Virus record (IMG/VR): IMGVR_UViG_3300033121_002167
Coordinates: 1 to 64,000 of that record
Direction: 5' to 3' (one strand)
Source of the DNA: a virus
DNA length: 64,000 nt
Shown here: positions 11,390 through 48,014 of the stretch, piece by piece
How the letters are laid out: each line of letters begins with the position of its first letter
Numbering within the stretch: position 1 is the stretch's first letter
Program-made: the position numbers and the translations under genes
Notes under the pieces: generated by a model
The model's database searches: none
What the model was told of the DNA's origin: nothing
What the model saw: only the letters and a program-made list of their open reading frames with translations

Positions 11390-11493
11390 TCTACGTGGGT
11401 GTTGTGCAGAGCGACACGTTGACGTACTTCTTGCACTGCTCGTCGGGGAAAATAATTGTTTGCGATATCTTTGACGTAACTAAGGTGTGGTGA
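11275..11493 (+). CDS. GDL-family small protein (array member)
   Basis: 'MRAGDLARA','LLIYVGV'. Confidence 0.5.
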   Translation: MRAGDLARARHEHVRAQIWVEDEGWFNDGERIPARDLLIYVGVVQSDTLTYFLHCSSGKIIVCDIFDVTKVW

Positions 11494-16031: not shown

Positions 16032-16039
16032 AGGAACCA

Positions 16040-16240: not shown

Positions 16241-16242
16241 AG

Positions 16243-17168: not shown

Positions 17169-17398
17169 TGGTCTCTACCGGCGATATGATGATATTCCAG
17201 TGTGATGTTGCTCTACGATCACGTTCTTTGAAAGAACCAGATTGGGAGTACAAACGTTGCACCAAAGCCAAAGGCTCCATCTGCATCGTTGTAGGAACTC
17301 AAAGCTATGGTGACGATGGGGTAGATTGCTGCATATACGTTGCCAACAACCATCAGGTGGGATGGGTTAGATCAATCATCCTTGAACCGCTTCGATGA
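17168..17398 (+). CDS. GDL-family small protein (array member)
   Basis: 'STGDMMIF','ICIVVGT'. Confidence 0.5.
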   Translation: MVSTGDMMIFQCDVALRSRSLKEPDWEYKRCTKAKGSICIVVGTQSYGDDGVDCCIYVANNHQVGWVRSIILEPLR

Positions 17399-17646
17399 AA
17401 AACAAGCGATGGTATACGCACACAAAATGTATCGGCGATCTTGTGAAGATCGATGATGCACTTTTGTTGAGAACGCACCCCGTGAGACATCCCGACGGAA
17501 AGTACAAAAACACGCTTGGAGACGATAGCATGCTATTTTTGATCATCGGGATCATGATCTACGATGAAGGTGTAGATGTTTGCGTCACAGGTTGCCAAGG
17601 AGAAATAGGTTGGATAAATCAGCTGCTAGTGACGAAGTTCGAATGA
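17395..17646 (+). CDS. GDL-family small protein (array member)
   Basis: 'KCIGDLVKI','LFLIIGI'. Confidence 0.5.
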   Translation: MKNKRWYTHTKCIGDLVKIDDALLLRTHPVRHPDGKYKNTLGDDSMLFLIIGIMIYDEGVDVCVTGCQGEIGWINQLLVTKFE

Positions 17647-17876
17647 ACAATTTTTCTCCGGGTGACTTGGTCATCACGACAACGAGGCTAGCATTTCGTG
17701 CCATCGAAGATCGATCATCGCACTACATCACGCTACCTGGGACATTGCTACAGATCATCCAGATCATGGACATGGAAGATGTCGATCCCTATGCTCAGGG
17801 CCGCGGTGCACTATGCTTCTATGCACCCATGGGTCACACGATACTGTGCAACCTTGACTTCTTGAAGCCAGCATGA
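17643..17876 (+). CDS. GDL-family small protein (array member; internal start of ORF 17580..17876)
   Basis: 'FSPGDLVIT'. Confidence 0.45.
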   Translation: MNNFSPGDLVITTTRLAFRAIEDRSSHYITLPGTLLQIIQIMDMEDVDPYAQGRGALCFYAPMGHTILCNLDFLKPA

Positions 17877-18100
17877 TGTACCCAGGAGACGTGTTCGCGT
17901 ACCCAGTTTCACCAAGGGCTTGGTACTTGTGCATCGGCATCGAGGAGCTTGGGCACAATAACATCTGGGTCACTTGCGTGCTATTCAACAGCGACGTAAG
18001 CGCTCGTGTATACAAAGTGCAGATGAAGGCATATGACCCGCAGTGCACCAACGGAGCCAAGATCGTGCTCTCTAGCTGCCCACAGAATATTCAGCGATAA
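17873..18100 (+). CDS. GDL-family small protein (array member)
   Basis: 'MMYPGDVFAY','WYLCIGI'. Confidence 0.5.
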   Translation: MMYPGDVFAYPVSPRAWYLCIGIEELGHNNIWVTCVLFNSDVSARVYKVQMKAYDPQCTNGAKIVLSSCPQNIQR

Positions 18101-18149
18101 TGCGTTGCAGTTATCCACAGCCTAATTCAGTGAGTAAAATGAAAGCATC

Positions 18150-35598: not shown

Positions 35599-36513
35599 TC
35601 AAGCGTACTTGCACATCAGCTGCTCACCAAGATCCTTGAGGAACGGTGCACCGTAGTTACCATCACGGCCAGCTTCAAGGTCGGTTTCAAGGAAGCTCGG
35701 CAACGCTTCGTCAGAATAGCGTGCAGATGCAATGCCCCATGCGATCGCAGCGACAGAGTCTGTGTCTCCGCCCCAGCTCGCAACTCGAGACATGATCCCT
35801 GCCAACGACTTTTCTTTGACGAGCAACGTATGAACAGCCCAAGCCGTGTTCCAACCGAGGCCACGATCCCCCGGCTGCTTTGGTCGAGCCTTCACAGAGC
35901 CCTCCCAGGGCTTCGAGAAATAATCAAAAGAATCTAGGTAACGGCTACACCATCCTAGCATGTGATTAAAATCTCGACGGTCGTAGAGGGCATAATGCGA
36001 CATCAACGCAACAGCGATCGAGGAGTTGATGCCACCCCACGTGGCATGCGTTGTAGCTGCTTGCAACCCAGCGTAGCGAACGACGTCGTCCGGATCTTTG
36101 ATGACGCCTATGGGAACTGAGCGCATCGCTGCACCGTTCTTGTCGGAATTTGGTTGAAGCTTCAGCTTCAGCTCATCACCGCTCTTTGAAGATTCTAGCA
36201 GCTGCTGCATCGCTCTGCTGTAGCCATCGCGTAGATCTCTTGCATGAACTTCCCAGAACTTGCCAACAAAATCAACGGCGCTGGGTGATTCGCTGGTGCA
36301 CAGCAGCTCTGCGATCGCAATGTTCTGCTGGGTATCATCTGAGTACCAGCCTGGCTTCATCAGCTCGTACGTTGGATGCTGAACGTAACGATTCATAGAG
36401 CCAACAGCTTCAAAAAGCTCGCCATGCTTCTCTTTATCGATGAATTCGATGCCCAACGCCAATGCGTCTGCTTGCGCAATGCGCAGCAGCATGTTGCTGT
36501 TCTTTCGTCTCAT
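35599..36513 (-). CDS. ADP-ribosylglycohydrolase (ARH/DraG family)
   Basis: N-terminal 'IAQADALALG' and C-terminal 'GGDTDSVAAIAWGIAS' Mg-binding motifs. Confidence 0.7.
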   Translation of the reverse strand: MRRKNSNMLLRIAQADALALGIEFIDKEKHGELFEAVGSMNRYVQHPTYELMKPGWYSDDTQQNIAIAELLCTSESPSAVDFVGKFWEVHARDLRDGYSRAMQQLLESSKSGDELKLKLQPNSDKNGAAMRSVPIGVIKDPDDVVRYAGLQAATTHATWGGINSSIAVALMSHYALYDRRDFNHMLGWCSRYLDSFDYFSKPWEGSVKARPKQPGDRGLGWNTAWAVHTLLVKEKSLAGIMSRVASWGGDTDSVAAIAWGIASARYSDEALPSFLETDLEAGRDGNYGAPFLKDLGEQLMCKYA

Positions 36514-36803
36514 AGTTTCCTTATGAAGGTTCGAAGCACGAAGAAAGATTCACCAAGCGAGGGAACGATGACTTTTGCGTAATCTGGTCCCAAGTGCGTA
36601 ACGATGCACATCGTATTCTTGAATACGGGTATATACCCGACGGGTATGTAATCTCTTTTGCTAATCCGAACAGCAGTGTCTTTGCTAATCCGATGAACAG
36701 CAGTGTCAAAAACAAAATACCACAGCTCTGCTTCTAGCAACTGTGCCAAGGAGTGACGCACAATGAATTCGTTGCAATATTGTTCTGCTGGGTTCAACCC
36801 CAT
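36510..36803 (-). CDS. hypothetical small protein
   Basis: ORF only. Confidence 0.3.
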   Translation of the reverse strand: MGLNPAEQYCNEFIVRHSLAQLLEAELWYFVFDTAVHRISKDTAVRISKRDYIPVGYIPVFKNTMCIVTHLGPDYAKVIVPSLGESFFVLRTFIRKL

Positions 36804-37126
36804 CGCCTGTGCGGTCTCCTATTTCTGTCAACGTTGCCATCCAGCGCATCGTTCAAAATTTGGGACGCAATCGACCACAAATCTTCTTCTGAACGAACCC
36901 TTCTGTTGAACTGCGCGTTCTGAACTTTAGCTCCAACATCGTCTAGGCCAATGCGCTGGAGCTCTTCACCGAGCCAGTTAGCAGTCGTTATCACTTCTTT
37001 AGTTCTGACATCACATGACCAGTTCGCTGGTCTTCCAGCGCTGTGCCCAGCGAATAGTCTTTCAATGTTGCGCTGAACGTTCTCTCTGACCATGTCAGGA
37101 GAATAGCGCGGTGCTACTTTTTCCAT
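36794..37126 (-). CDS. hypothetical small protein
   Basis: ORF only. Confidence 0.35.
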   Translation of the reverse strand: MEKVAPRYSPDMVRENVQRNIERLFAGHSAGRPANWSCDVRTKEVITTANWLGEELQRIGLDDVGAKVQNAQFNRRVRSEEDLWSIASQILNDALDGNVDRNRRPHRRWG

Positions 37127-37129
37127 CTT

Positions 37130-37945
37130 CTACTTCTGTCTTTTTGGACACCAGTAAGTTGTTCGACCATCAGCGGTCGAGTCTTTTTCTACTGGAAATC
37201 CATGAGGATCAGTGACTTGATTGTACACTGAAAATCTGTCTGATATCCATGATGTGCCATCCGGACCCACTGAGTAAGCCCCGCCGAGCTCGTACGACAG
37301 GTTCATCATCATTATGATAGCTGATCGTAGGTCAGCAAAGTCTTCGTGGGTTAGCGACGAAACTGGGCGATGCGGTGATATCTTCGCAGCATACAAAGAT
37401 TCACACTTCAAGTAATTACCGACGCCAGAGACGCAGCTTTGGTCCATCAGAGCTTCAGCGATCGTTCGATTGCTCTTGAACATCATGCGCTCGATGAATT
37501 CTTCATCATCTGGTGGTGAGTTAAGCATGTCCGGACCTATTGACTTCAGCTTTGAAGCTAGCACTTCGGCAGAAGACGTGAAGCTCAACGTCCCGAATCG
37601 ACGCTGGTCAATGAACGTCGTTGTCAACTCATCAGACATGATTGACATGACAGCGTGCCCAGCCGTGGGCCGCGTCGTCCACTTTCCCGTCATCCCGTAG
37701 GTACACATCATGTACCAATCGGGCTCAAGATATTTCTTGAACGTCCACCATGAGAACTTTCCCTTTACGCGAGCTGCTTCCATCATGTAGCCATCACGAA
37801 CAGCAGAAGCGAAATTTTGGTAACCAGCGGGCTCTTTCGAAGAGTAACGACCAGTGTTGTGCAGCTGAACGGCACGAATGATCTCACCGCTGAACAGGTT
37901 GTTGATCTCTTCGACGCTCAACGTGACTTCAACGCCCTCGGGCAT
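37130..37945 (-). CDS. Fpg/Nei-family DNA glycosylase (zincless-finger type)
   Basis: starts MPEGVEV (Pro2/Glu3 catalytic), H2TH region, C-terminal 'GRTTYWCPKRQK' aligns to Fpg 'RATFYCRQCQK' but lacks the 4 Cys. Confidence 0.7.
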   Translation of the reverse strand: MPEGVEVTLSVEEINNLFSGEIIRAVQLHNTGRYSSKEPAGYQNFASAVRDGYMMEAARVKGKFSWWTFKKYLEPDWYMMCTYGMTGKWTTRPTAGHAVMSIMSDELTTTFIDQRRFGTLSFTSSAEVLASKLKSIGPDMLNSPPDDEEFIERMMFKSNRTIAEALMDQSCVSGVGNYLKCESLYAAKISPHRPVSSLTHEDFADLRSAIIMMMNLSYELGGAYSVGPDGTSWISDRFSVYNQVTDPHGFPVEKDSTADGRTTYWCPKRQK

Positions 37946-38275
37946 TCATCCCTCCAGTGCAGCGGCTCCAGCAGCTGCGGCATTGTAGAACCTGACATCG
38001 ACATTGTCTGATGCCTTGAAGAGAAACCACTGGTTGAGCGTCTCGTCCCAAGCGTGGATCGTTCCATCTTCATCGATCTTGTGGATCTCGCAAGATGAAG
38101 TGTGAGGACGAGCATGGCGCAACCGAGTCACCAAGATCTTGCTACCAACTGGTGCTAGCAGCACGCCGTCGGCGATCGCAGGCACTGTCTTTGGATCGAT
38201 CTTCACTCTCTTCTTTCGTAGAGCCTTCGGCGCTTTCTCTTTAACGCGCTCAGCGATCTTCTTTGCATTGCTCAT
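37946..38275 (-). CDS. hypothetical small basic protein
   Basis: ORF only. Confidence 0.35.
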   Translation of the reverse strand: MSNAKKIAERVKEKAPKALRKKRVKIDPKTVPAIADGVLLAPVGSKILVTRLRHARPHTSSCEIHKIDEDGTIHAWDETLNQWFLFKASDNVDVRFYNAAAAGAAALEG

Positions 38276-38696
38276 GTTTCTTTATCCAGTCGTAGTATAT
38301 GCCCAATGCACCGTCTGACGGGCGGTAGCTACCCACATCACATTGGAAGAACATCTTCCATGATCTCCAACCGTACTCGCCGATACCGGGCAGCTCCCGG
38401 GCATCTGACCAAGATTTGCTCACGTAAGCCTTTGTCATTGACCTGATCGTGGCTTCGCGACGATTCTTGAATCCAAGGGACCGGATCAAGTCAGCGACTT
38501 CAGCTGGAGAGCTCTCCAAGTACTTCTCAGGTGTTGACCAACGAGACATGAATTCAGGTAGGATCTTTTCCACCTGCGTTCTCTTCGTCCGGTTCAGCAT
38601 GATGCAGCTGACGAGGACGAGCCATTCATTGGGCCATAGAGATTCTTGTATGAGACTGTGAGGACTTGCTAGCGGTATCATACCACTTGCCAACAT
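38250..38696 (-). CDS. HhH-GPD DNA glycosylase, MBD4-like
   Basis: 'LVSCIMLNRT' ~ MBD4 'LIATIFLNRT'; 'LPGIGEYGWRSWKMF' ~ 'LHGIGKYGNDSYRIF'. Confidence 0.7.
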   Translation of the reverse strand: MLASGMIPLASPHSLIQESLWPNEWLVLVSCIMLNRTKRTQVEKILPEFMSRWSTPEKYLESSPAEVADLIRSLGFKNRREATIRSMTKAYVSKSWSDARELPGIGEYGWRSWKMFFQCDVGSYRPSDGALGIYYDWIKKHEQCKEDR

Positions 38697-38720
38697 TGTA
38701 ATTCGTCTAGCTGGGCAAGT

Positions 38721-39395
38721 TCATCTGCCGTACTTCTTGTCAAAGTACGTGTTACCAAGTTGGTACAGAACATTTTCTAGCGATGATTGCTTCACGTCGT
38801 GCTTTGCCAGCTGCTGAGCAACTTCACCATGCCTCTGGATCAAGCTTGATTTTGCCGCGCTTTGTCCTGGCCCGTCGTAAGAGTAGTTCAATACCTTGTT
38901 TGGATCTTTCACAAGCTCGCAGTCATCGCATTCTTCTGGTGTCTTTGGATCATCACGATCATCAAACGGTTTCTTGTCAACATCACTGCGCTTCGAAGAG
39001 TAATATTGCCACAACTTCTCGGCAGAAGAATTTGTCGATACCCTATCTGGCATCAAGCCACCGTCGCCATCGCTCATGACAATATCGTACATGAGCGGAC
39101 CGTAGCCTTTCGAAGCAGCAGATCGATGAACTTCGATAGCGTCATTGCACTCGTCAGAGTGTGGGATGGCTTCGATGAAACCGTAGATAAATTCATCGAG
39201 AGGTTTGGAGAATCGCATGCTCCAGAAACCCGGTTCTTGCATGACAGACGCTAGAGTCTTGGGCTCGTAAAGAACGTAGTAAATCTTACCTTCTCGCTGT
39301 CCCCTATAAAGAGCTAGCCCAGCATCTATAGCTTGATCTCCGCCCACTGCTGCTTCAATGAGGTGTGATATGTACGACTTCAAGTGTTGCTTCAT
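38721..39395 (-). CDS. hypothetical protein
   Basis: 224-aa ORF. Confidence 0.4.
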   Translation of the reverse strand: MKQHLKSYISHLIEAAVGGDQAIDAGLALYRGQREGKIYYVLYEPKTLASVMQEPGFWSMRFSKPLDEFIYGFIEAIPHSDECNDAIEVHRSAASKGYGPLMYDIVMSDGDGGLMPDRVSTNSSAEKLWQYYSSKRSDVDKKPFDDRDDPKTPEECDDCELVKDPNKVLNYSYDGPGQSAAKSSLIQRHGEVAQQLAKHDVKQSSLENVLYQLGNTYFDKKYGR

Positions 39396-39703
39396 AGGAT
39401 TCCCACCCTCTTGAACAGCTTTCGATTGTAGTCGCTGAAAGATCCTTGCAGGAGAACAGCGGGTTCAACCCACTTCACCACACCAGATTCATCAGTGTCA
39501 ACGTTACCCATGACTGAGCAAGAGTAAGTCGTCACGAAGTAACCAGCATCATCTTTCTGCGAGAACACTTTTGTTAGATTGACAGCAGTGTAACCGGTCT
39601 CTTCTTCGAGCTCTCTTGCAGCGGCTTCAACCTCAACCTCACCAGGATCCACTTTCCCGTGGGAAATTGTTGCAACTATATTCTTCTTGATCAAGCTTAC
39701 CAC
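39392..39703 (-). CDS. Nudix hydrolase fragment (C-terminal two-thirds, retains Nudix box)
   Basis: 'GKVDPGEVEVEAAARELEEETGY'; paralogous to 40467..41039 but lacks N-terminal ~85 aa; 5' end abuts GIY-YIG gene. Confidence 0.45.
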   Translation of the reverse strand: MVSLIKKNIVATISHGKVDPGEVEVEAAARELEEETGYTAVNLTKVFSQKDDAGYFVTTYSCSVMGNVDTDESGVVKWVEPAVLLQGSFSDYNRKLFKRVGIL

Positions 39704-39715
39704 CTATATAATTTC

Positions 39716-40543
39716 ATGTTTGTGTACAAAATAACTTGCATCATAAGTAACCGAATTTACGTTGGAAAAACAATTCATAGCATAGAGTCTAGATTCAATC
39801 GTCACATAAAACAATCAAAAAATCCTAGTACAAAATTTCATCATGAAATTGCAAAATTTGGAAAAGAAAATTTCGAAATTGTTCTACTACAAGAATGCAA
39901 TTCAGTTAAAGAGCTCAATCAGGCAGAAAGAGATTGGATTGAAAAACTAAACAGTACTGATCCTATCGTTGGTCTTAATTCAACATGCGGTGGTCAGTGT
40001 GGTTTGATGACATGTGAAACAAAAATCAAAATATCAAACGCACTAAAAAATAGAAAACTTTCGAACGAACATCGATCAAAGATATCTGCAATAATGAAAA
40101 CCAAGCACGGTGCATTGAACAATTTTTACGGACGTCATCATGACGATAACACTAAAAAATCAATTTCAAATTCAATGAAAGGTGAGCGCGGTCCGTGCTA
40201 TGGAAGAACGGGCTCAAAACATCCGATGTTTGGAAAAACACATAGCGATGAATCAAAAAAGAAAATGTCAGACATTAAGTCTGGTAAGAAACTTACAGAC
40301 AAGCACTACAAAGCCGTTAAAGCCTGGCATGCGAAAAGAAAAGAAATAATCTCAACCCGTGATGATCAGATTTTTGATCTTATTTTCAACAAAGGCTTTT
40401 CGAAGAAGAACGCGGCAGAGGCTCTAGGCGTGGGTATCAATCTCATTTACGGAGCAATGCATCGATTCAAAGTATCGAAATCTTCTGAAAGAGAAGTTGA
40501 TTGTAACGATAAAATGGAGATTGATTCGGATCGATCAAACTAG
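39716..40543 (+). CDS. GIY-YIG homing endonuclease (I-TevI-like, NUMOD3 repeats + C-terminal HTH)
   Basis: 'FVYKITCIISNRIYVGKT...RFNRH'; repeats 'HRSKISAIMK','TKKSISNSMKG','SKKKMSDIKSG'; AT-rich island (track ORF 39659..40543). Confidence 0.75.
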   Translation: MFVYKITCIISNRIYVGKTIHSIESRFNRHIKQSKNPSTKFHHEIAKFGKENFEIVLLQECNSVKELNQAERDWIEKLNSTDPIVGLNSTCGGQCGLMTCETKIKISNALKNRKLSNEHRSKISAIMKTKHGALNNFYGRHHDDNTKKSISNSMKGERGPCYGRTGSKHPMFGKTHSDESKKKMSDIKSGKKLTDKHYKAVKAWHAKRKEIISTRDDQIFDLIFNKGFSKKNAAEALGVGINLIYGAMHRFKVSKSSEREVDCNDKMEIDSDRSN

Positions 40544-41039
40544 AAGGATTTACCCACCTGATTACGCCACTTTCATTTGTATGAATTGTACCGGATACGT
40601 TTCCGGAAAACGTTGTTGTCATAAATCCATGAGAATCTCTCATTGAAAATATTTCAACTAGATCAGTTACATCAAGTCCAGTTTCTTCTTTCAACTCTCT
40701 TCTAGCAGCGTCAATATCTTTTTCACCAACATCAACATGTCCACCAGGCATACCAAGCGCATTTGGATCATCTTTCCTAGAGACTGCCAAGATCTTTCCG
40801 TTTGGGTTCCTAACAAGAACGCATGCAGCTCGCGGGGCATTCAAAGCTGCGAGCGTCTCGTCTTCTTCGTCATTTGCCAACGAACCACCCACTTCGACGT
40901 TTGTTATCGGCGGTCGAGGATCTGTCAACATCTCACGGATGAGCTGCTTCAGAAGCTTAACTTCTTTGGTTCTGGAAGTGGACATGATTCGATCTGATCG
41001 CAGCTCGTTATGTTCTTGACGCAAGACGGAGCGAGCCAA
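40467..41039 (-). CDS. Nudix hydrolase
   Basis: Nudix box 'GGHVDVGEKDIDAARRELKEETGL'; N-terminal 'KLLKQLIREML' propeptide-like motif. Confidence 0.7.
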   Translation of the reverse strand: MARSVLRQEHNELRSDRIMSTSRTKEVKLLKQLIREMLTDPRPPITNVEVGGSLANDEEDETLAALNAPRAACVLVRNPNGKILAVSRKDDPNALGMPGGHVDVGEKDIDAARRELKEETGLDVTDLVEIFSMRDSHGFMTTTFSGNVSGTIHTNESGVIRWVNPSSLIDPNQSPFYRYNQLLFQKISIL

Positions 41040-41323
41040 ACGCCTGCTGCTTGCGTATCACGGCAGAACACGCTGCACGTTGCCACGCAGTGGTTCGCTA
41101 CGCAACCATGACCCAAGTCACAATCACCAGTGTCAGCGCACAACCTCTTCATGTCGATATCACGGCCCTCTTCGCAACCCAAGTTGTTGAGACGATCACA
41201 TGCAGCCTGGCAGTCACCCGTATCGGTCACAACTGGCGGTTGAGGTGTTACGTTGGACCCACGAGGGCACCCAGAAATAATCAATGTAATGAGAAGGATA
41301 GATACTGCGCCCAATTTTTTCAT
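40949..41323 (-). CDS. Cys-rich putative lipoprotein
   Basis: signal peptide + lipobox 'LIISGC'; 16 Cys in mature region. Confidence 0.5.
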   Translation of the reverse strand: MKKLGAVSILLITLIISGCPRGSNVTPQPPVVTDTGDCQAACDRLNNLGCEEGRDIDMKRLCADTGDCDLGHGCVANHCVATCSVFCRDTQAAGVWLAPSCVKNITSCDQIESCPLPEPKKLSF

Positions 41324-41330
41324 TATTCTC

Positions 41331-41678
41331 TCAAATTTCTCTCAAGTACCCAAACTTAGCATTGAAGAGCCCAACAAGCGCTGAATCTGTTTCCTTGAAA
41401 TCATTGTTGTGCTTGCGGAATAGCTTCGCGTACTTTGAAGATGCATAATCGATGATCTCACGTCTGATATTATCAGGCAGAGGTTCATCATTGATCTCTT
41501 CTGTCTTTCTGATCCAGAAAACGGCAGCAGTGCGACCATTTGATGCTAGCGACGGCGCCATGTGCCTCTTTAGCCGGGCGATGAACTTTGTGTCAAGCTT
41601 GAGCTCAGCAATGATAGTTGAGACGTACTCTTTCAGCAGCTGTTGATCGCTCATGTACCCTCCAAAAACGGTACCCAA
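41331..41678 (-). CDS. hypothetical protein
   Basis: ORF only. Confidence 0.35.
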   Translation of the reverse strand: MGTVFGGYMSDQQLLKEYVSTIIAELKLDTKFIARLKRHMAPSLASNGRTAAVFWIRKTEEINDEPLPDNIRREIIDYASSKYAKLFRKHNNDFKETDSALVGLFNAKFGYLREI

Positions 41679-43633
41679 AAGCTGTTTGCAGAGCTTTCGT
41701 CTAGGTACTTAAACGGCACCCAAGCGTAACCATCATCTCCCCACCAAGTTCCCCAAGAGTTGCGAACCAACCACAGCTCTCTTCCAAGATCGTAGCCTAC
41801 GATCACTTGGCAGTGACCTCCAGCGCCGGCCCTAACGGACTTTGGCATCGCAACGGGTGGACCGCCGCGGTACGCCATGTAATCTTTATCGACAGTCATG
41901 CCAAAGACGATCGGATGGCTTGCTTGCAGCGCAGAGATGATGTAGTTTTTCTGCGCTTGACCAGATCCACCGATAGAATAGTAGCTGTCGATTTTGTTGA
42001 CGTAAGCGTCTCTGTAAGAACCCCAAGACGGTCGAATGAAGACCTTGCTGGTGTCATAAGGCCACTTTTCTTCTGCACAAGTTCCCAATGATGACAGCGT
42101 TCCGAACGCCATGTGAATGTAAGCACCCTCATCGCGATCTTGCATTCGTGACATCAAACGAGCATTGTAGTAGACGAACATCCTAGACAAGTCTACGAAA
42201 GGTTTGCCGTTGCGGATCTGAAGAAACTCGAGAGCCCCAACGACACCGTTGCCGACGCAGTTATGAACAAAAACACCGCTAGCTAGAGCGAAATTATGCT
42301 GTTCATTATCAACCGTTAGACAGTACACATCTATTTTTTCATCTAGATGTTCAATGCTGACTATTTTGTGATTGTAATTTTCAGCAGCTTCTTTCAGCTC
42401 ATTCAGAGAACTGAAGTATTTTTCTATTGACTTGAATGTCGAAAAATTTGGAATCCCAGATGATCTTTTAGTTTTTTCCCACGCCTCTTGCGTGAGCTCA
42501 CTATTCTCTGTGATGACACGATTAGCATACTTGATCAATTTCAATCTTCCAGATTCAGAACCAATTGATCGCATTGATTCTCGTACAACTGACATAAATC
42601 GATCATCACTTTTTATTCTCTTGCTTATCTGTTTTCCAATCAGTTTCTTTTGTTCTTGCGTTCTATTTGAAAGCGTTTCTTTCAACGACAAACGTGCCTT
42701 TGCTCTTGATTCAGAGCTATGACCTTTCATGAAAAACTGTTGACGCCAACTTTCCATCTTGTTTTCATCATTCATTCGATTGATGTGCGCTTGTGTACCT
42801 CCTTTACCCTGGGCACCAGCATTCCATAGTGGATTATCTGCGTACTGTTTTAGTATCGTTCTACGCGAATCTTCGCTTTGTTTTTTCGAACCATGATACC
42901 AAGTTCCACCATGAGGCGTTTGTTGTGAATGATACAAAAAGTGCTCTTGTATACCCATGAACTTTAGATTCTCAGGATCATTGTTCTTCTTGTTGAAATC
43001 AATGTGATGAACACACTTAACATTTTCATCAATATGCTGCAACTGTTCTGAATGAACGTTGTACGCAACCATGTTGTGAGTTTTTACGTATGATGACTTA
43101 AAGTTGTCAAAAATCATCTGATACCCGTTCTTATCGTATTTTACATACAAAGGCATCAATGACATTGATGAAGTCAATGATTTAGCTTCACAATAAGTTC
43201 CATCTCTTAGAAGCCAACGATGATCTGGTGTGCAAATCACCACATCGCCAGAATCTAGTGTGACTTTAATGACCTCTTTTTTCAAACCAGTCAATTTTGC
43301 CGTTGCTTTGCCAGGTACGATTTTTCCTTCTGGTGTGCAAGAATAAATCCAAAATGGTTTGTTTGATTCGTGAAGTTCTTTCAATGATCGTTTTTCACCA
43401 TTGAGCAAACGAATAAGTGTATCACCAGAAAAGCAGCTTCCGATCTGACCTTGATCCTCCACGGGGGAGCACCACTGGCGCAGATCTAGGACGCCGTCGA
43501 CCTCTTGCGGAGCGCTAGCTGGTGATGCAGCTGCGAACTTAGAGATATTATCCGCAAAGACGTAGTTCTTGCTTGCGTCATGATCTGGATCTTCGTGGTC
43601 GGCTTTCCAGCCGCCTAGCTTTGGTACGTACAT
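41651..43633 (-). CDS. papain-like (C1) cysteine peptidase interrupted by an intein
   Basis: exteins: 'QGQIGS|CVGNGVVGALEF' (papain 'QGSCGSCWAF..AVVTIEG'), 'GGHCQVIVGYD' (His), 'NSWGTWWGDDGY' (Asn-Ser-Trp). Confidence 0.75.
   Translation of the reverse strand: MYVPKLGGWKADHEDPDHDASKNYVFADNISKFAAASPASAPQEVDGVLDLRQWCSPVEDQGQIGSCFSGDTLIRLLNGEKRSLKELHESNKPFWIYSCTPEGKIVPGKATAKLTGLKKEVIKVTLDSGDVVICTPDHRWLLRDGTYCEAKSLTSSMSLMPLYVKYDKNGYQMIFDNFKSSYVKTHNMVAYNVHSEQLQHIDENVKCVHHIDFNKKNNDPENLKFMGIQEHFLYHSQQTPHGGTWYHGSKKQSEDSRRTILKQYADNPLWNAGAQGKGGTQAHINRMNDENKMESWRQQFFMKGHSSESRAKARLSLKETLSNRTQEQKKLIGKQISKRIKSDDRFMSVVRESMRSIGSESGRLKLIKYANRVITENSELTQEAWEKTKRSSGIPNFSTFKSIEKYFSSLNELKEAAENYNHKIVSIEHLDEKIDVYCLTVDNEQHNFALASGVFVHNCVGNGVVGALEFLQIRNGKPFVDLSRMFVYYNARLMSRMQDRDEGAYIHMAFGTLSSLGTCAEEKWPYDTSKVFIRPSWGSYRDAYVNKIDSYYSIGGSGQAQKNYIISALQASHPIVFGMTVDKDYMAYRGGPPVAMPKSVRAGAGGHCQVIVGYDLGRELWLVRNSWGTWWGDDGYAWVPFKYLDESSANSFWVPFLEGT
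42260..43435 (-). mobile_element. intein (Hint domain with HNH homing-endonuclease insert), 392 aa
   Basis: block A 'CFSGDTLIRL', block B 'TPDHRW', HNH 'VHHIDFNKKNNDPENL', block F 'VYCLTVDNEQHNFALASG', block G 'VFVHN|C'; AT-rich vs host gene. Confidence 0.7.
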
Positions 43634-44445
43634 AATAGCTTCTTCCCTGTTAGCATTGAGATCAAGAACTTGACAGCGTTAAACAAGATCGCCAAGAAAC
43701 CTTTTGCATCTGGTGTTGGGGGAGGTGCAGGAGGCGGTTCAGGCACAATTATATCAACTGACGGTTGAGTTTTTACTTCAGGCTCTGGCTCTTCGATGAC
43801 AACTGGGATCAGAGGATGATCTGGAAGTTTGTCAGGCCAGTGAAGCGTCATAGCGGGGTACGTGTCTGGTTCTTCAAGAACTCGAGCAGCGTTGGTGAAC
43901 AAGATTACATTTGCCTCGTTGCGAGGCTTCAAGCCGGGATTTCCTGCTTCATTCATCTTGCACGTTGCCGCTGCAGTCAAGAAGTCTTTCTTCTTCACAG
44001 CGGCTTCGAAGCGTGGAAAGTTGAAGCCAGATCCCATAGCCCAAGACATGCTCATGATCCCAAGCTGAGCATCTGCGGGCCATGAATCAAACTCAGGGAA
44101 GCGCTTCTTGACGTGAGCTTCCATCTCTAGGAGCCTGCGCCTGACCAGGTCGTCGCAAGATTTCTGAGACAGCTTTAGAGCCGTGATAGCCCTGAACGAA
44201 GGAGCACCCTTCAGCGCGAGATCTGTCCTAGCTTTAACGTTGTGCCACTCTGTAGCAATTTCACCCGGCGGTGCCAGCCCGCCAGACTTCCTTTCAAATG
44301 GCAACGAAGTAGCCATAGAGATCGGATCGATCAGGTTTCCCCGAGCGATCGTCACCAGGCCTTTGACGTCTAGGTACATGTGCTCAACGACGCCTTCGAA
44401 GCGGCCCGTGAAGCTGCTGAAAGCATCTATGACTGATTGATGCAT
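43615..44445 (-). CDS. GH24 lysozyme (T4 lysozyme-like) with Pro-rich linker and C-terminal hydrophobic segment
   Basis: 'FEGVVEHMYLDVKGLVTIARGNLI' ~ T4L '[23 protein letters not shown]' (catalytic E, D, T). Confidence 0.7.
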   Translation of the reverse strand: MHQSVIDAFSSFTGRFEGVVEHMYLDVKGLVTIARGNLIDPISMATSLPFERKSGGLAPPGEIATEWHNVKARTDLALKGAPSFRAITALKLSQKSCDDLVRRRLLEMEAHVKKRFPEFDSWPADAQLGIMSMSWAMGSGFNFPRFEAAVKKKDFLTAAATCKMNEAGNPGLKPRNEANVILFTNAARVLEEPDTYPAMTLHWPDKLPDHPLIPVVIEEPEPEVKTQPSVDIIVPEPPPAPPPTPDAKGFLAILFNAVKFLISMLTGKKLLCTYQS

Positions 44446-44984: not shown

Positions 44985-46178
44985 TCAGAATTCGCCGCGA
45001 GTTCCGTGCTTCGCGTAGTAATCAGCTTCGCGCCGAGCAGAAGACTTCTTGTGCTTCGACCAAGACTTGATCTCTTCTGGCGTTGGCTTCACTGCGTCTG
45101 CAAACATGTAGTCAGCGCGTTGAGCTCGGCCGTCAGTTGTCCGGCACGTGACGTAGCTACCACCAGTCGACGGCGTATCTTCAAACGAAGCGATCTGAAC
45201 GACAGCACCGCCTGGCAACTTCACCCAGTCACCGACGTTCCAGCCATCAAATGATGTCATTCCCTCGGTGAGAATCGTTCTGATCATCGACTTGAGCTCG
45301 CGAAGCTTGATCTTCATAGCGAGTAAGTATTCACCCCAAAGGTGATCAAACGTCGCAGTGAACTTTCCCCAAGCTTCATCTTTCAGAAGCGACTTAAAGC
45401 CGTACTTCTCGAACGTAGAGCGGACAGGTGCCCAATCTTTGGTCGGCTGCGAAGACGTCATACCGTGCGCCTCTTCGTCAGACCACGTGGTGAACTTGAT
45501 GAGCGAATAATTCTTTCGAAAGGCTTCTTTGTTAGCAGGATCGTTGAAGAACTCCTTCAACGCATCCGGGTCGTCCATCAGCGCCGTGGCAGCACCATCC
45601 GTGATAATCTTTGGGATGTTGTCAGTCGGATCGCCACGAAGAGCCTTCCATGTAACGTAATCAGCGGGAGCTTGCTCAACGTACGTCTTCTTCATCGGGT
45701 TATAGATGCTGACGCCCTCAAATTCATCTAGGAGCTGCGTGAAGTCAGAATCGTTCGATACAACTGTCCACTTCACGGCTCGAGTGCCACGCTTGATGAG
45801 GTTGTAGATCGTGTCATCGCACTCGTGGTGAGGATGACGCACGACAGAGAACGGAAAAGAACCTGCCAACAACCCGACTATCTCGTCGACCTGGCTGAAG
45901 AACTTCACCATCTCATCGTGCTCTTTGGTGCCGGCTTCTACGATGCGGTTCGCCTTGTATTGCGGCAAGATATCGTGACGAGCTTGCGGATGGCCTTCAA
46001 GCACGAAATACAAGCGACTGATATCAAGTTTTTCTACTAGTGCTCGTATGTTACGAAAAAAATTAAAAACTACAGGAGCTGGACCAGCTGTCCAGCCAGT
46101 TCTAGACCGGTGCAAAAAATTCATCCCATCTACTAGACAAATATGAGGACGCATAATTCTATTGTTACGTGCTTCCAT
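44985..46178 (-). CDS. 5'-3' exonuclease / flap endonuclease (T4 RNase H / Pol I 5'-exo family)
   Basis: 'ICLVDGMNFLHRS' (cf. Pol I 'LIDGSSLAFRAF'), 'LEGHPQARHDILPQYKANR'; N-terminal ~50 codons unusually AT-rich. Confidence 0.75.
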   Translation of the reverse strand: MEARNNRIMRPHICLVDGMNFLHRSRTGWTAGPAPVVFNFFRNIRALVEKLDISRLYFVLEGHPQARHDILPQYKANRIVEAGTKEHDEMVKFFSQVDEIVGLLAGSFPFSVVRHPHHECDDTIYNLIKRGTRAVKWTVVSNDSDFTQLLDEFEGVSIYNPMKKTYVEQAPADYVTWKALRGDPTDNIPKIITDGAATALMDDPDALKEFFNDPANKEAFRKNYSLIKFTTWSDEEAHGMTSSQPTKDWAPVRSTFEKYGFKSLLKDEAWGKFTATFDHLWGEYLLAMKIKLRELKSMIRTILTEGMTSFDGWNVGDWVKLPGGAVVQIASFEDTPSTGGSYVTCRTTDGRAQRADYMFADAVKPTPEEIKSWSKHKKSSARREADYYAKHGTRGEF

Positions 46179-46816
46179 TGCTTGTTAAGCTTAATCCGAT
46201 TTACTTGAGAACGACTAATATTGAACAGTTTCACAATGTCACAAACTCTAGTTCCAATTGACAATTGATACTTGATTCCCTTAACATCATCTTCAGTCAA
46301 TGAACAATTTGGATTTTTCACTCCAATCCGTAGTTTAGCATGCTCACTAATTTTTTTACGTGCTTGATCAGTAAGATGTGTTCCGAAATTTGGATTTCTA
46401 GCGCCACGCAAACCTTCCCAACCAAGTCTTGCACGAGAAATTGCCTGGCGATGTTCTAGTGACTTAGGTTTTCCGCGGTGTTTATCACTCATTTTCTGAC
46501 GAGTTTCTATCGAAACAACGCAACCCGTAGATCCTTCTCCTCCACGCGTCAGATTATAACCTCTATCGATGTTAAACGAATCATAATGTGATATCCAATA
46601 AATTTCACGATCATCACACTCATGATCATCACACTCTTCTAGAATTCGAAACTCGAAATTTTCATGACCATATTTTCGGATGGAACAGTAAAGAGGTCGA
46701 AGATCACCTTTCTTGGCAGAATACAAATGTCCTGCTTTTCTATTGGAAAAATTTTTCGTTTGCCCAACATATACTTTCCCGTTGATTAGATTCTGAATCA
46801 GATAAACATATCTCAT
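46133..46816 (-). CDS. GIY-YIG homing endonuclease (Seg-like) with C-terminal HTH
   Basis: 'VYLIQNLINGKVYVGQT...NRKAGH'; AT-rich. Confidence 0.75.
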   Translation of the reverse strand: MRYVYLIQNLINGKVYVGQTKNFSNRKAGHLYSAKKGDLRPLYCSIRKYGHENFEFRILEECDDHECDDREIYWISHYDSFNIDRGYNLTRGGEGSTGCVVSIETRQKMSDKHRGKPKSLEHRQAISRARLGWEGLRGARNPNFGTHLTDQARKKISEHAKLRIGVKNPNCSLTEDDVKGIKYQLSIGTRVCDIVKLFNISRSQVNRIKLNKQWKHVTIELCVLIFV

Positions 46817-47005
46817 TCAATTAAGTATATCGAACCGTGTTGGAGGGGCAAAGAATAGCGTCTCCACGAGAGACCTGATGTTCCTCATGAAGTTGAAGAC
46901 GACGGGCGCAGGACCGCCTGTCCATCCACTTCGGGCTCGATGCAGAAAATTCATGCCGTCGCACAGAACCACGTGAGGTTGTAGCATCTTCTTAGATTGT
47001 ACCAT
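46817..47005 (-). pseudogene. displaced N-terminal fragment (62 aa) of the 5'-3' exonuclease gene
   Basis: 'LCDGMNFLHRARSGWTGGPAPVVFNFMRNIRSLVE' ~ residues 13-50 of 44985..46178 protein but with GC-rich codons. Confidence 0.55.
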
Positions 47006-48014
47006 GACGTAACGTTTCGTTGCACTTCTTCAAGTACCATGCACGCGCAGCAGCTTGCAGCTGACCACGAACGTCGTGCCACTCCAACCCGCTGGCTTCA
47101 AGCTCAGCTTGTGCTTCCTTGAAGACGTCCTTGCACACCCAAGCCAAGAACGGTCCCGTGAGTCGCGGATGATATTCACCACCGAGCGTGGCGACACCTT
47201 GCTCTAGGCGAGCTTCAGACAGAACGAGAGCGACAAACTCAGCTGCAGATGCGGCAACTTCCGGATCAACTTGCGCTGGTTTTCCGTGCGTCAAGATCTT
47301 GTGAGCTTCACCCTTTGCCTTGAAAGCCAAGTTCGTGAACGTCTTCACCGTCGTTGGCAGTGGGTAGTAAACGAGACCTTCACCGACGCCCTCAACTTGG
47401 AACGTGGACTTCACCCAAGGATCGCATCTCTCAACTTCAGCAACGTCGCTGTTTATCTTGTCAACGATGGGTTGCAGATCTTCGACGCGGTGCAGCATGT
47501 TAACGTTGAACGACTTCGAGTGCCAAGGAAGCACGTACGCATCATGGACACCCGCGACCAGCGGCTCGAGCTCGTCAGGTTCAACGATCAGCTTCGACTC
47601 TTCGTTGTCAAATGCGTCTAGGACCGCAGCGGCAAAGACAGCAAAGAACTTCTTGCTGACTTGCGTCAATGCTGTTCCCTTGTTGATGCCAGGTCCGCAC
47701 CATTCACCGAAGATCACTTTGTCGACTGCCACGCCTGTGTCTAGAAACGATTGCGATTCTCTGTGAGCCCATGCTGCCAACCCAGCAAAATCGTTGCCAG
47801 GAGCGATGAACTGCTCGCGGGTCTGGACTGTGATGCCCTTTCGCCTGACTTGGATCCCTGCATTGGCACCATGAAGCTTCACCTTGGGCCTGAAGGTGAC
47901 GTTACCGTCACCCACGATGTGGGGGTAGTTCCTGATGTTCTTCCGAAGCGTGTGGAAGTTGACTATCTCTGGCCATCTGATGAACGACATCTGCTTTGAA
48001 TCCTTCCTGTGCAT
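46992..48014 (-). CDS. RNA ligase, Rnl2 family
   Basis: motif I 'KLHGANAG' (T4 Rnl2 'KIHGTNFS'); 'IFGEWCGPGINK' (T4 Rnl2 'VFGEFAGPGIQK'); 340 aa. Confidence 0.8.
   Translation of the reverse strand: MHRKDSKQMSFIRWPEIVNFHTLRKNIRNYPHIVGDGNVTFRPKVKLHGANAGIQVRRKGITVQTREQFIAPGNDFAGLAAWAHRESQSFLDTGVAVDKVIFGEWCGPGINKGTALTQVSKKFFAVFAAAVLDAFDNEESKLIVEPDELEPLVAGVHDAYVLPWHSKSFNVNMLHRVEDLQPIVDKINSDVAEVERCDPWVKSTFQVEGVGEGLVYYPLPTTVKTFTNLAFKAKGEAHKILTHGKPAQVDPEVAASAAEFVALVLSEARLEQGVATLGGEYHPRLTGPFLAWVCKDVFKEAQAELEASGLEWHDVRGQLQAAARAWYLKKCNETLRHGTI

What the first reader, a model, noticed from the sequence alone, without database searches (positions are those of the whole stretch)
39392..41039. Nudix gene duplicated and split by a GIY-YIG homing endonuclease
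A 103-aa Nudix fragment (39392..39703) keeps the Nudix box and the same C-terminal block ('ESGV[IV][KR]WV.P...Y.[RN].LF...IL') as the full 190-aa Nudix (40467..41039). It lacks the N-terminal third of the fold. A GIY-YIG endonuclease gene (39716..40543, opposite strand) sits exactly between them. This looks like a homing-endonuclease insertion accompanied by partial target duplication.
Basis: seen in the sequence. Interest (0 to 1): 0.5.

Follow-up and report, generated by a model that had tools for sequence, protein, structure and literature searches.

The report
Homing endonuclease carrying replacement Nudix half
A selfish endonuclease gene has inserted into the Nudix hydrolase gene of an uncultured jumbo phage, bringing a foreign copy of the gene's second half that keeps the enzyme whole, and identical copies in diverged relatives show that it is still spreading.

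Summary
Two Nudix ORFs lie on the minus strand (39392..39703 and 40467..41039) and share 45% amino-acid identity (BLASTP E 1e-28). A GIY-YIG/NUMOD3 endonuclease gene (39716..40543, plus strand) lies between them.

It is an insertion, but not a target duplication. Twenty-one related metagenomic loci carry one intact Nudix gene. Its first 278 nt match the 5' part of the window's long ORF, and its nt 298-564 match the short ORF.

The window instead carries a 1,103-bp, low-GC cassette (39659..40761; GC 0.36 against about 0.50). The cassette holds a foreign Nudix 3' half fused in frame at codon 93/94, plus the endonuclease gene on the opposite strand. It replaces 19 native nt and leaves the native 3' half downstream as an orphan.

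Eleven loci carry the cassette at the same junctions, in two variants that differ by 4%. Each variant is 100% identical across genomes whose flanks differ by about 3-8%. Both cassette ORFs evolve mostly by synonymous change.

The best reading is active intronless homing of a self-complementing endonuclease cassette. The same hybrid-gene structure is known from mobile endonuclease ORFs in fungal mitochondria. I found no phage report of it. Cleavage activity and the cut site are inferred, not shown.

The parts
40762..41039 (-). Native 5' part of the Nudix gene: gene nt 1-278 from the TTG start, with the likely real start at the ATG at 40985. It encodes the N-terminal helices and the first two beta-strands.
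   Evidence: It is 100% identical over 278 nt to the intact gene of L001, and GC is 0.50. Secondary-structure elements come from the AF2 model.
39659..40761 (.). Mobile cassette of 1,103 bp (type T1). It holds the foreign Nudix 3' half, the endonuclease gene and a 57-nt segment upstream of that gene. It replaces 19 native nt (CGATTTTGGATTGCCGGGT).
   Evidence: It is absent from 21 related loci. It shows 0 differences in 1,103 nt between the window and L003-5, although the flanks differ by 41 and 38 of 560 nt. GC is 0.361. There are no terminal repeats.
40467..40761 (-). Foreign Nudix 3' half (residues 94-190 of the 190-aa ORF), fused in frame after Asn93. It contains the Nudix box GHVDVGEKDIDAARRELKEETGL.
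   Evidence: It is 47% aa / 54% nt identical to the native 3' half, and GC is 0.376. The closest database relatives are only 57% identical. Between cassette types T1 and T2 there are 9 synonymous changes and 1 conservative change.
40467..40985 (-). Hybrid Nudix hydrolase ORF of 172 aa from the ATG (190 aa from the TTG at 41039).
   Evidence: Pfam NUDIX covers positions 3-127 of 134. The AF2 model has mean pLDDT 88.7, with block means of 91-98 across the junction at residue 75/76. Foldseek places it in the Nudix fold.
39716..40543 (+). Free-standing GIY-YIG + NUMOD3 homing endonuclease gene (275 aa), convergent with the hybrid Nudix ORF and overlapping its 3' end by 77 nt.
   Evidence: Pfam, PHROGs and NCBIfam hits. 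Its alignment to the I-TevI catalytic domain retains Tyr4, Tyr15, Gly17, Arg26, His30 and Glu71. T1 and T2 differ at 21 synonymous and 5 non-synonymous codons.
39659..39715 (+). Cassette segment upstream of the endonuclease start codon, presumably carrying its expression signals. On the minus strand it supplies a TAG stop, then a GTG and 15 codons that read in frame into the native remnant.
   Evidence: Sequence. No sigma-70-like promoter was detected here. T1 and T2 differ at 5 of 57 nt.
39392..39658 (-). Displaced native 3' half of the Nudix gene (gene nt 298-564, residues 100-187 of the intact protein). It is an orphan fragment that lacks the N-terminal helices and the first two beta-strands.
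   Evidence: It differs from the intact L001 gene at 3 of 267 nt, and the proteins are identical. It stays open in all eight cassette-bearing copies that include it, and dN/dS is the same as among intact alleles.
38721..39395 (-). Downstream 224-aa gene of unknown function. Its ATG overlaps the stop of the Nudix gene or remnant (ATGA).
   Evidence: The overlap is the same in cassette-free and cassette-bearing alleles.

Best explanation
The window comes from an uncultured jumbo phage; a related contig is 313,755 bp long.

**Structure.** A mobile cassette has invaded the phage's single Nudix hydrolase gene, just upstream of the Nudix-box coding sequence. The cassette has two parts:
- a free-standing I-TevI-like GIY-YIG/NUMOD3 homing endonuclease gene;
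- a foreign, low-GC copy of the 3' half of a Nudix gene from a distantly related phage.

The foreign half is fused in frame to the native 5' part at codon 93/94. The phage therefore still makes a complete, hybrid Nudix enzyme. The native 3' half is pushed 1.1 kb downstream and remains as an orphan fragment.

**Proposed mechanism (inferred).**
1. During co-infection the endonuclease cuts cassette-free alleles at or within about 20 bp of the insertion point. That point lies in the sequence coding KDDPNDFGLPGGKVDPGE.
2. The break is repaired from the cassette-bearing genome. The native 5' part and the native 3' remnant serve as the two homology arms, so the whole cassette is copied in.
3. Cassette-bearing genomes would be immune for two reasons. 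The site is split by the cassette, and the homologous stretch of the foreign half differs at 15 of 48 positions.

**Proposed origin (inferred).** The founding event was probably a one-sided repair, homeologous on the Nudix 5' side and illegitimate on the other side, with loss of 19 native nt.
For: **Shown here**
- **Empty site.** Twenty-one related loci from many samples have one intact gene. The window's long ORF matches its nt 1-278 at 100%. The remnant matches nt 298-564 with 3 differences in 267 nt. Only 19 nt are missing.
- **Foreign origin.** Cassette GC is 0.361 against about 0.50 in the flanks. The two 3' halves are 54% identical at nucleotide level.
- **Horizontal movement as a unit.** All 11 cassette-bearing copies share the left junction. 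The eight that reach the right end share that junction too. Type T1 shows 0/1,103 differences between backgrounds whose flanks differ at 41/560 and 38/560 nt; at that divergence the chance of no difference is about 1e-35. Type T2 is identical in three backgrounds whose flanks differ at 16-43 of 560 nt. Cassette-free alleles exist with both 560-nt flanks identical to a cassette-bearing allele, for example L108 and L003.
- **Both ORFs are constrained.** Between T1 and T2 (44 differences) the foreign Nudix half has 9 synonymous changes and 1 V-to-I change. The endonuclease has 21 synonymous and 5 non-synonymous codons. The 77-nt overlap has no change.
- **The hybrid protein looks whole.** It has a full Nudix box, full Pfam coverage and a confident model across the junction.
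- **The endonuclease looks active.** The residues aligned to the I-TevI catalytic domain are retained.
- **It is not an intron or a transposon.** There is no Rfam match and there are no terminal repeats.
- **The cut is probably close to the insertion point.** Background-specific polymorphisms resume 8 nt from the right junction and 18 nt from the left.
- **The pattern recurs.** A second GIY-YIG gene in the window (46133..46816) shows the mirror-image arrangement on the 5'-3' exonuclease gene.

**From the literature**
- The same hybrid-gene structure, with an inserted foreign C-terminus, an endonuclease ORF and a displaced native C-terminus, is described for mobile endonuclease ORFs in Allomyces and Glomus mitochondria (PMC3630166).
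- One-sided, illegitimate double-strand-break repair with resection is documented for T4 intron homing (PMC2988022).
Against: - No biochemical or expression data exist. Cleavage activity, the cut site and immunity of cassette-bearing alleles are all inferred.
- No promoter-like site was found for the endonuclease gene, which lies antisense to every neighbouring gene.
- No donor was found. The closest Nudix relative of the foreign half is 57% identical. The closest endonuclease relative is 40% identical and sits in unrelated contexts.
- Ordinary homologous recombination between co-infecting phages could also move the cassette between backgrounds without help from the endonuclease.
- The very short co-conversion tracts are unusual for T4-type homing. 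Later recombination could have produced them instead.
- All related sequences are metagenomic assemblies.
Confidence: 0.8

Rival explanations
1. One reading: the endonuclease inserted with a partial duplication of the phage's own Nudix gene. Both copies then descend from the resident gene, and one has since diverged.
For: Two overlapping Nudix segments flank the endonuclease gene and share the Nudix box and the C-terminal block.
Against: - The copies are 54% identical at nucleotide level, while the remnant differs from the intact gene of L001 at only 3 of 267 nt.
- The copy next to the endonuclease gene has the GC of that gene (0.376), not of the host (0.49-0.50).
- It moves with the endonuclease gene as an invariant block.
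- Alleles with identical 560-nt flanks exist with and without the cassette, which leaves no time for 46% divergence after a duplication.
Confidence: 0.03
2. The cassette and the hybrid gene are real, but the endonuclease is inactive or does not target this site. On this view the presence/absence pattern and the identical copies in different backgrounds come from ordinary homologous recombination among co-infecting phages, not from homing.
For: - Flank haplotypes are mosaic, with left and right flanks sorting independently, so recombination is frequent in this population.
- No promoter was detected for the endonuclease gene.
- Co-conversion tracts are shorter than 8-18 nt.
Against: - The endonuclease ORF is intact in all copies and keeps its catalytic residues.
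- It shows about 4:1 synonymous to non-synonymous codon changes between T1 and T2, which implies selection for a working protein.
- Two cassette variants have each reached several backgrounds with no internal change, as expected for a driven element.
Confidence: 0.12
3. A 'genes-in-pieces' arrangement, as with mobE in nrdA of phage Aeh1. Here the insertion would split Nudix into two polypeptides that reassemble, so the short ORF would be a needed subunit.
For: - The short ORF is open in all eight cassette-bearing copies that include it.
- The cassette provides it with a GTG start.
- Its stop still overlaps the start of the next gene.
Against: - The upstream ORF does not end at the junction. 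It continues through a complete second half of the fold, so the two ORFs overlap in content rather than complement each other.
- The openness of the remnant is explained by recent insertion. Its dN/dS is the same as among intact alleles, and that divergence predates insertion.
Confidence: 0.03
4. The arrangement is an assembly chimera that joins reads from two phages with different Nudix genes.
For: All the data are metagenomic.
Against: - The same two junctions recur in independent assemblies from JGI, ENA and Logan samples.
- They occur in at least five flank backgrounds.
- The cassette is single-copy in each contig and has no repeats that could mislead an assembler.
Confidence: 0.01

Closest known systems
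Mobile endonuclease ORFs (mORFs) that form hybrid genes in fungal mitochondria: Allomyces macrogynus atp6; Glomus sp. atp6, atp9, cox2 and nad3; Rhizopus atp9; Mortierella cox2 (as described in PMC3630166)
   Same: The element has the same three parts: an inserted foreign C-terminal coding segment in frame with the native 5' part, an endonuclease ORF (GIY-YIG in Glomus atp9), and a displaced native C-terminus downstream. The sequence relationships also match. The native remnant is near-identical to close relatives, while the inserted segment is only about 60-80% identical. Horizontal transfer is inferred in the same way.
   Different: - The host here is a jumbo bacteriophage, not an organelle.
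- The target is a Nudix hydrolase gene, cut at the Nudix box.
- The endonuclease gene is on the opposite strand and overlaps the hybrid gene's 3' end by 77 nt. In the fungal cases it lies on the same strand, after or fused to the gene.
- Population data here show the same cassette in several diverged backgrounds.
Intronless homing by free-standing GIY-YIG Seg endonucleases of phage T4 (SegB, SegF, SegG), with co-conversion of flanking markers (PMC2988022, PMC2330249)
   Same: Both involve a free-standing GIY-YIG gene in a phage. Both spread by double-strand-break repair during co-infection and carry adjacent coding sequence along, which produces mosaic genes.
   Different: In T4 the co-converted flank replaces the homologous recipient sequence and leaves no remnant. 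The Seg genes sit between genes and often cut at a distance. Here the cassette sits inside a gene, carries a strongly diverged substitute for half of it, and leaves the native half behind. The exchange points lie within 8-18 nt of the cassette ends.
Genes-in-pieces insertions in phages: mobE in nrdA of Aeromonas phage Aeh1, mobA in T4 gene 60/39, seg in gene 43 of phage 25 (PMC2988022)
   Same: A free-standing endonuclease gene is inserted inside a conserved region of a phage enzyme gene, without an intron or intein.
   Different: In those cases the gene is split into two complementary polypeptides that reassemble. Here the gene stays in one piece because the cassette supplies the missing half, and the leftover piece is redundant.
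I-TevI (intron-encoded GIY-YIG endonuclease of the T4 td intron)
   Same: The N-terminal catalytic domain aligns and retains the catalytic residues. It is followed by NUMOD3 DNA-binding modules. The protein passes the TIGR01453 cutoff. A cut close to the insertion point is inferred, as for I-TevI.
   Different: It is not inside an intron (no Rfam hit). Identity to its nearest relatives is only 40%. Its target is unrelated.

Membership tests
GIY-YIG homing endonucleases (I-TevI / Seg type) | N-terminal GIY-YIG catalytic domain with the conserved Tyr...Tyr-x-Gly, Arg, His and Glu residues | tested here: met
   Pfam GIY-YIG at 2.7e-13. The alignment to I-TevI chains 1mk0 and 1ln0 shows Tyr4, Tyr15, Gly17, Arg26, His30 and Glu71 at the positions of I-TevI Tyr6, Tyr17, Gly19, Arg27, His31 and Glu75.
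GIY-YIG homing endonucleases (I-TevI / Seg type) | C-terminal modular DNA-binding region (NUMOD repeats or a helix-turn-helix) | tested here: met
   NUMOD3 at 2.4e-14 in three stretches. TIGR01453 scores 88.7 bits against a 56.05 cutoff. A C-terminal helix-turn-helix is only suspected from the sequence and was not tested.
GIY-YIG homing endonucleases (I-TevI / Seg type) | Presence/absence polymorphism at one site among close relatives, with an intact empty site | tested here: met
   Twenty-one cassette-free loci and 11 cassette-bearing copies, with shared junctions wherever the contig reaches them.
GIY-YIG homing endonucleases (I-TevI / Seg type) | Site-specific cleavage of the endonuclease-free allele and resistance of the endonuclease-bearing allele | not testable with these tools
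   This needs purified protein and a cleavage assay. The only evidence here is indirect: exchange points lie within 8-18 nt of the junctions, and the homologous site in the foreign half has 15 of 48 mismatches.
Hybrid-gene-forming mobile endonuclease ORFs (fungal mitochondrial mORF type) | A foreign C-terminal coding segment fused in frame to the native 5' part, much more diverged from relatives than the rest of the gene | tested here: met
   The native part is 100% identical to L001. The inserted half is 54% nt / 47% aa identical to the native half and is fused at codon 93/94.
Hybrid-gene-forming mobile endonuclease ORFs (fungal mitochondrial mORF type) | The displaced native C-terminus is retained downstream of the endonuclease ORF and is near-identical to that of element-free relatives | tested here: met
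   The remnant 39392..39658 differs from L001 at 3 of 267 nt and the protein is identical.
Hybrid-gene-forming mobile endonuclease ORFs (fungal mitochondrial mORF type) | The hybrid transcript is expressed and the native C-terminus is not part of the product | not testable with these tools
   No RNA data are available. The hybrid ORF ends at its own stop codon at 40467-40469.
Nudix hydrolase superfamily (the hybrid protein) | Nudix box G-x5-E-x7-R-E-U-x-E-E-x-G-U within an alpha/beta/alpha fold | tested here: met
   The sequence GHVDVGEKDIDAARRELKEETGL fits the motif. Pfam NUDIX covers positions 3-127 of 134. The AF2 model and Foldseek matches support the fold. No NCBIfam equivalog cutoff is reached, so the substrate is unassigned.
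Group I intron-encoded endonuclease (as named by JGI and TIGR01453) | The endonuclease ORF lies within a self-splicing group I intron | tested here: not met
   No Rfam family matches 39000..41400, even at E<=1. The hybrid ORF is continuous, and the endonuclease gene is on the opposite strand.
Transposon / insertion sequence | Terminal inverted repeats and a target-site duplication | tested here: not met
   There are no repeats at the cassette ends. Nineteen nt of the target are deleted rather than duplicated.

The most novel reading that the evidence does not exclude
'Self-complementing' free-standing homing endonuclease genes may be a general and so far overlooked way for these genes to invade phage genes. 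Each would carry a cleavage-resistant foreign substitute for the part of the gene it disrupts. That would let it enter catalytic-motif coding sequence with no intron or intein.

This one phage window shows three possible stages:
- the Nudix cassette, which is polymorphic and currently spreading;
- the 5'-3' exonuclease cassette, which is present in every relative that covers it and whose remnant is decaying;
- a possible third case at 62945..63925.

One further possibility is that the orphan fragment is kept because it serves as the homing arm and preserves translational coupling to the downstream gene.
Probability: 0.3. Interest if true: 0.6.

Novelty: new member of a known kind. Interest (0 to 1): 0.45.

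Why it matters
**What the case offers.** It is a clean natural example of homing caught in progress in an uncultured jumbo phage. The data include:
- filled and empty sites in otherwise identical genomes;
- exact junctions;
- two circulating cassette variants.

**Wider point.** A free-standing endonuclease gene can invade the conserved core of an enzyme gene without an intron, intein or gene split, by bringing a substitute half-gene. This structure is known from fungal mitochondria. I found no phage report of it in the literature I could search.

**Practical consequences**
- **Annotation.** Truncated 'extra' gene copies next to phage endonuclease genes should be read as displaced natives, and the full-length neighbour as a chimera. 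This affects annotation, phylogenies of such genes and estimates of horizontal transfer.
- **A testable enzyme.** The case yields a candidate site-specific GIY-YIG nuclease whose target is predicted to within about 45 bp and can be tested directly.

Tried and rejected
- **Phage GenBank nucleotide search.** A blastn search of the region (37000..44000) against phage GenBank records found nothing. Protein-level searches found only distant relatives at 42-46% identity. No cultured relative is known.
- **Metagenome scan.** The scan with the intact Nudix protein was swamped by generic Nudix-box matches. It returned only 29-56% relatives, so it was useless for synteny.
- **Search for the donor.**
  - The best match to the foreign half is 57% identical (P0042, P0043), and no endonuclease gene lies next to those genes.
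  - The closest endonuclease relatives are 40% identical and sit between unrelated genes.
  - The donor remains unidentified.
- **Promoter and terminator scan.** It gave nothing above the shuffle background and nothing upstream of the endonuclease gene.
- **Remnant evolution.** A test for decay or constraint of the remnant by dN/dS was uninformative. The values (0.04-0.14) match those among intact alleles, because the divergence predates insertion.
- **Rejected readings.**
  - Loss by simple deletion in the cassette-free alleles: they contain 19 nt that cassette-bearing alleles lack.
  - Group I intron: no Rfam match.
  - Transposon: no terminal repeats.
  - Stop-codon recoding as the reason for the ORF-poor region at 5-20 kb: TGA-recoded ORFs translate to junk, and the region is in fact an array of small genes.
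Full report
**1. What is in the window**

Three ORFs lie at the stated coordinates.
- **Short Nudix ORF.** 103 aa at 39392..39703 on the minus strand. It matches Pfam NUDIX at E 1.1e-11, but only profile positions 33-132 of 134.
- **Long Nudix ORF.** 190 aa at 40467..41039 on the minus strand, from a TTG start. Gene callers on related contigs use the ATG at 40985, giving 172 aa. It matches NUDIX at E 3.6e-20, positions 3-127 of 134.
- **Endonuclease ORF.** 275 aa at 39716..40543 on the plus strand. It carries a GIY-YIG domain and three NUMOD3 stretches. It hits PHROG homing-endonuclease families and passes the NCBIfam TIGR01453 cutoff.

The two Nudix ORFs share 41/91 identical residues (E 1e-28), from the Nudix box to the C-terminus. 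The endonuclease gene is convergent with the long Nudix ORF and overlaps its last 77 nt.

A sharp GC trough of 0.29-0.41 runs from about 39700 to about 40700, against roughly 0.45-0.55 on either side. The trough covers the endonuclease gene and also the 3' part of the long Nudix ORF. That was the first hint that this part is not native.

**2. The empty site**

A 140-kb IMG/VR contig (L001/L002) is 96-98% identical to the window across the aligned 31-50 kb. It has a single 187-aa Nudix gene that directly abuts the 224-aa downstream gene. A base-by-base comparison gives three results:
- Gene nt 1-278 are 100% identical to the 5' part of the window's long ORF (41039..40762).
- Gene nt 298-564 match the window's short ORF from 39658 down to 39392, with three synonymous differences.
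- The 19 nt between them (CGATTTTGGATTGCCGGGT) are absent from the window.

The window therefore carries 1,103 bp (39659..40761) in place of 19 bp. Cassette-free alleles cannot be deletion derivatives of cassette-bearing ones, because they contain 19 nt that the latter lack.

**3. The inserted block is foreign and includes half a Nudix gene**

| Segment | GC |
|---|---|
| Whole cassette | 0.361 |
| Endonuclease gene | 0.355 |
| Foreign Nudix half | 0.376 |
| Native Nudix 5' part | 0.500 |
| Native remnant | 0.487 |
| 2 kb beyond the remnant (37659..39658) | 0.50 |

- The inserted Nudix half (residues 94-190) is 47% aa / 54% nt identical to the native half it stands in for.
- Its best database matches are only 57% identical. 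They come from other uncultured phage-like contigs with partly similar gene neighbourhoods (Nudix near an HhH-GPD glycosylase), and no endonuclease gene lies beside them.
- The nearest endonuclease homologues are 40% identical and lie in unrelated contexts.
- The donor is therefore unknown.
- The cassette has no terminal repeats and no match to any Rfam family, including group I introns.

**4. Population evidence**

Exact-protein look-ups recovered many more loci of this phage group from JGI, ENA and Logan assemblies. One is a 313,755-bp contig, so this is a jumbo phage. In total, 21 loci lack the cassette and 11 copies carry it, counting the window.

- **Junctions.** Every cassette-bearing copy has the left junction ...GATCCAAA|. 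The eight that reach the right end all have |GGGAAAGT....
- **Two variants.** T1 is in the window and L003-5. T2 is in L089, L090, L105 and L106, and three truncated contigs (L091, L092, L107) carry its left end. T1 and T2 differ at 44 of 1,103 positions.
- **T1 across backgrounds.** T1 is identical in two backgrounds whose 560-nt flanks differ at 41 and 38 positions. At that divergence the chance of no difference in 1,103 nt is about 1e-35.
- **T2 across backgrounds.** T2 is identical in three backgrounds whose flanks differ at 16-43 of 560 positions.
- **Matched pairs.** Cassette-free alleles exist with both 560-nt flanks identical to those of cassette-bearing L003-5, for example L108.

The cassette therefore moves horizontally as a unit into one site, and has done so recently and repeatedly.

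Background-specific polymorphisms resume 8 nt from the right junction and 18 nt from the left. If the exchange is break-induced, the break lies at or very near the insertion point.

**5. Selection**

Between T1 and T2:
- the foreign Nudix half has 10 differences, of which 9 are synonymous and 1 is V104I;
- the endonuclease has 26 changed codons, of which 21 are synonymous and 5 are not;
- the 77-nt overlap of the two ORFs has no change.

Both genes are therefore maintained as working genes.

The endonuclease retains the residues aligned with the catalytic Tyr, Tyr-x-Gly, Arg, His and Glu of I-TevI.

The hybrid Nudix has a perfect Nudix box. It is predicted with mean pLDDT 88.7, and 10-residue block means of 91-98 from residue 51 to the C-terminus. 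This includes the junction at residue 75/76, which falls between the second beta-strand and the loop before the Nudix helix. Its best structural matches are Nudix ADP-ribose pyrophosphatases and MutT. The substrate cannot be assigned.

The native remnant begins at the first Gly of the Nudix box, so it lacks the N-terminal helices and two strands. It is open in all eight cassette-bearing copies that include it. Its dN/dS (0.04-0.14) equals that among intact alleles. That divergence predates insertion, so the value says nothing about present function.

**6. Mechanism**

Shown:
- the structure and the empty site;
- the foreign origin of the cassette;
- its unit mobility between backgrounds;
- constraint on both ORFs.

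Inferred:
1. The endonuclease cuts the cassette-free allele in the stretch coding KDDPNDFGLPGGKVDPGE.
2. The break is repaired from a co-infecting cassette-bearing genome. The native 5' part and the remnant act as homology arms.
3. Cassette-bearing genomes are immune because the site is split, and because the homologous stretch of the foreign half differs at 15 of 48 positions.

The founding event is best explained as one-sided repair, homeologous in the Nudix 5' region and illegitimate on the other side, with resection that removed 19 nt. This pathway is documented for T4 intron homing (PMC2988022).

The main rival is that general recombination, not the endonuclease, moves the cassette. This cannot be excluded without a cleavage assay. 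It fits poorly with the purifying selection on the endonuclease and with two variants each sweeping into several backgrounds.

**7. Comparison with what is known**

| Known system | Relation to this case | Source |
|---|---|---|
| Mobile endonuclease ORFs in fungal mitochondria (Allomyces macrogynus atp6; Glomus atp6, atp9, cox2, nad3) | Same three-part structure: foreign C-terminus in frame, endonuclease ORF, displaced native C-terminus that is near-identical to relatives | PMC3630166, |
| T4 Seg endonucleases | They co-convert flanks but leave no remnant | PMC2988022, PMC2330249 |
| Phage endonuclease insertions inside genes (mobE in nrdA, mobA in genes 60/39, seg in gene 43) | They give genes in pieces, not hybrids | PMC2988022, |

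Six full-text searches turned up no phage example of the hybrid-gene type. The library is incomplete, so this is not proof of absence.

I file the finding as a new member of a known kind. It is new in host type (a jumbo phage), in target (the Nudix box), and in the antisense, overlapping layout of the endonuclease gene.

**8. A second and possibly a third case in the same window**

- **Exonuclease gene.** A flank-against-flank protein comparison showed the mirror image at the GIY-YIG gene 46133..46816.
  - A host-GC fragment (46820..47029, GC 0.54) lies upstream of that gene.
  - The fragment is 56-64% aa / 60% nt identical to residues 4-50 of the 5'-3' exonuclease that follows the endonuclease gene.
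  - The first 150 nt of that exonuclease gene have endonuclease-like GC (0.39).
  - The fragment already carries a 9-codon deletion.
  - The endonuclease gene is present in L001 and L003, so this insertion looks older.
- **Possible third case.** A weak echo, 19 aa sharing GGAVGHLQ, flanks the endonuclease-like gene 62945..63925.
- **No duplication.** The GIY-YIG gene at 57987..58832 and the intein show none.

**9. Verdict**

The case is well supported and instructive, though not categorically new. Interest is 0.45.

Noticed in passing
window 44985..47029: A second GIY-YIG/NUMOD3 endonuclease gene (46133..46816, minus strand) shows the mirror-image arrangement. A host-GC fragment (46820..47029, GC 0.54) is 56-64% aa identical to residues 4-50 of the downstream 5'-3' exonuclease ORF (44985..46178), whose first 150 nt are low-GC (0.39). 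The native 5' end appears to have been displaced and a foreign 5' end supplied. The fragment carries a 9-codon deletion. No allele lacking this endonuclease gene was seen; L001 and L003 both have it.
   Followed up: partly
window 62945..64000: An endonuclease-like gene (MucR-type zinc finger plus NUMOD3, 326 aa, low GC) is preceded by a short frame, ..KKNYVNEGGAVGHLQ, that resembles the N-terminus of the 711-aa ORF after it (..RKKELLLCGGAVGHLQH). This may be a third displaced gene end. The evidence is weak (19 aa, E 7e-4), and the window ends here.
   Followed up: partly
window 41651..43633 (insert 42254..43448): The papain-family (Peptidase_C1) gene carries an intein with an HNH endonuclease domain (660 aa against 268 aa without it). 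The insert has GC 0.376. It is absent from L001, L003, L004, L090 and many others, and present in L089. Its presence varies independently of the Nudix cassette.
   Followed up: partly
window ~4180..19500 (+ strand), plus 28876..29076 and 29730..29969: About 15 kb has almost no ORF of 150 aa or more. Stop-codon recoding is not the cause. The region is a dense head-to-tail array of more than 35 small paralogous genes (49-116 aa). Each starts M-x(1-6)-G-D-L-[VL], and they share a hydrophobic core pattern. Their function is unknown.
   Followed up: partly
window 19824..22511 (+): An 895-aa ORF matches the major vault protein shoulder domain (E 2e-30), the vault repeats and the SPFH/Band 7 domain. 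This is an unusual protein for a phage genome.
   Followed up: no
window 35599..41039 (- strand): The Nudix gene sits in a run of genes that includes a short HhH-GPD glycosylase (38250..38696) and an Fpg/Nei glycosylase (37130..37945). An ADP-ribosylglycohydrolase homologue lies further on in related loci. The run could be a cluster for repair of oxidised bases or for ADP-ribose metabolism. The Nudix substrate is unresolved.
   Followed up: no
window 30571..32196 (-) and 1478..1561 (+): The phage encodes a GroEL-type chaperonin (541 aa, PHROG 5725 at E 3e-145) and a tRNA-Leu(TAA). No cultured phage relative is closer than about 46% at protein level.
   Followed up: no
window 36621..36787 vs L001 11169..11290: There is a small replaced segment between the window and its closest relative (167 nt against 122 nt). 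It lies in the stretch between the 304-aa ORF (35599..36513) and the Fpg gene.
   Followed up: no
window 39659..39715 and 40710..40761: Differences between cassette types T1 and T2 cluster at the two ends of the cassette: 6 in the first 52 nt and 5 in the last 57 nt, against 4% overall. These ends include the stretch homologous to the presumed target site. This could reflect selection on cleavage resistance or partial conversion by the host sequence.
   Followed up: no
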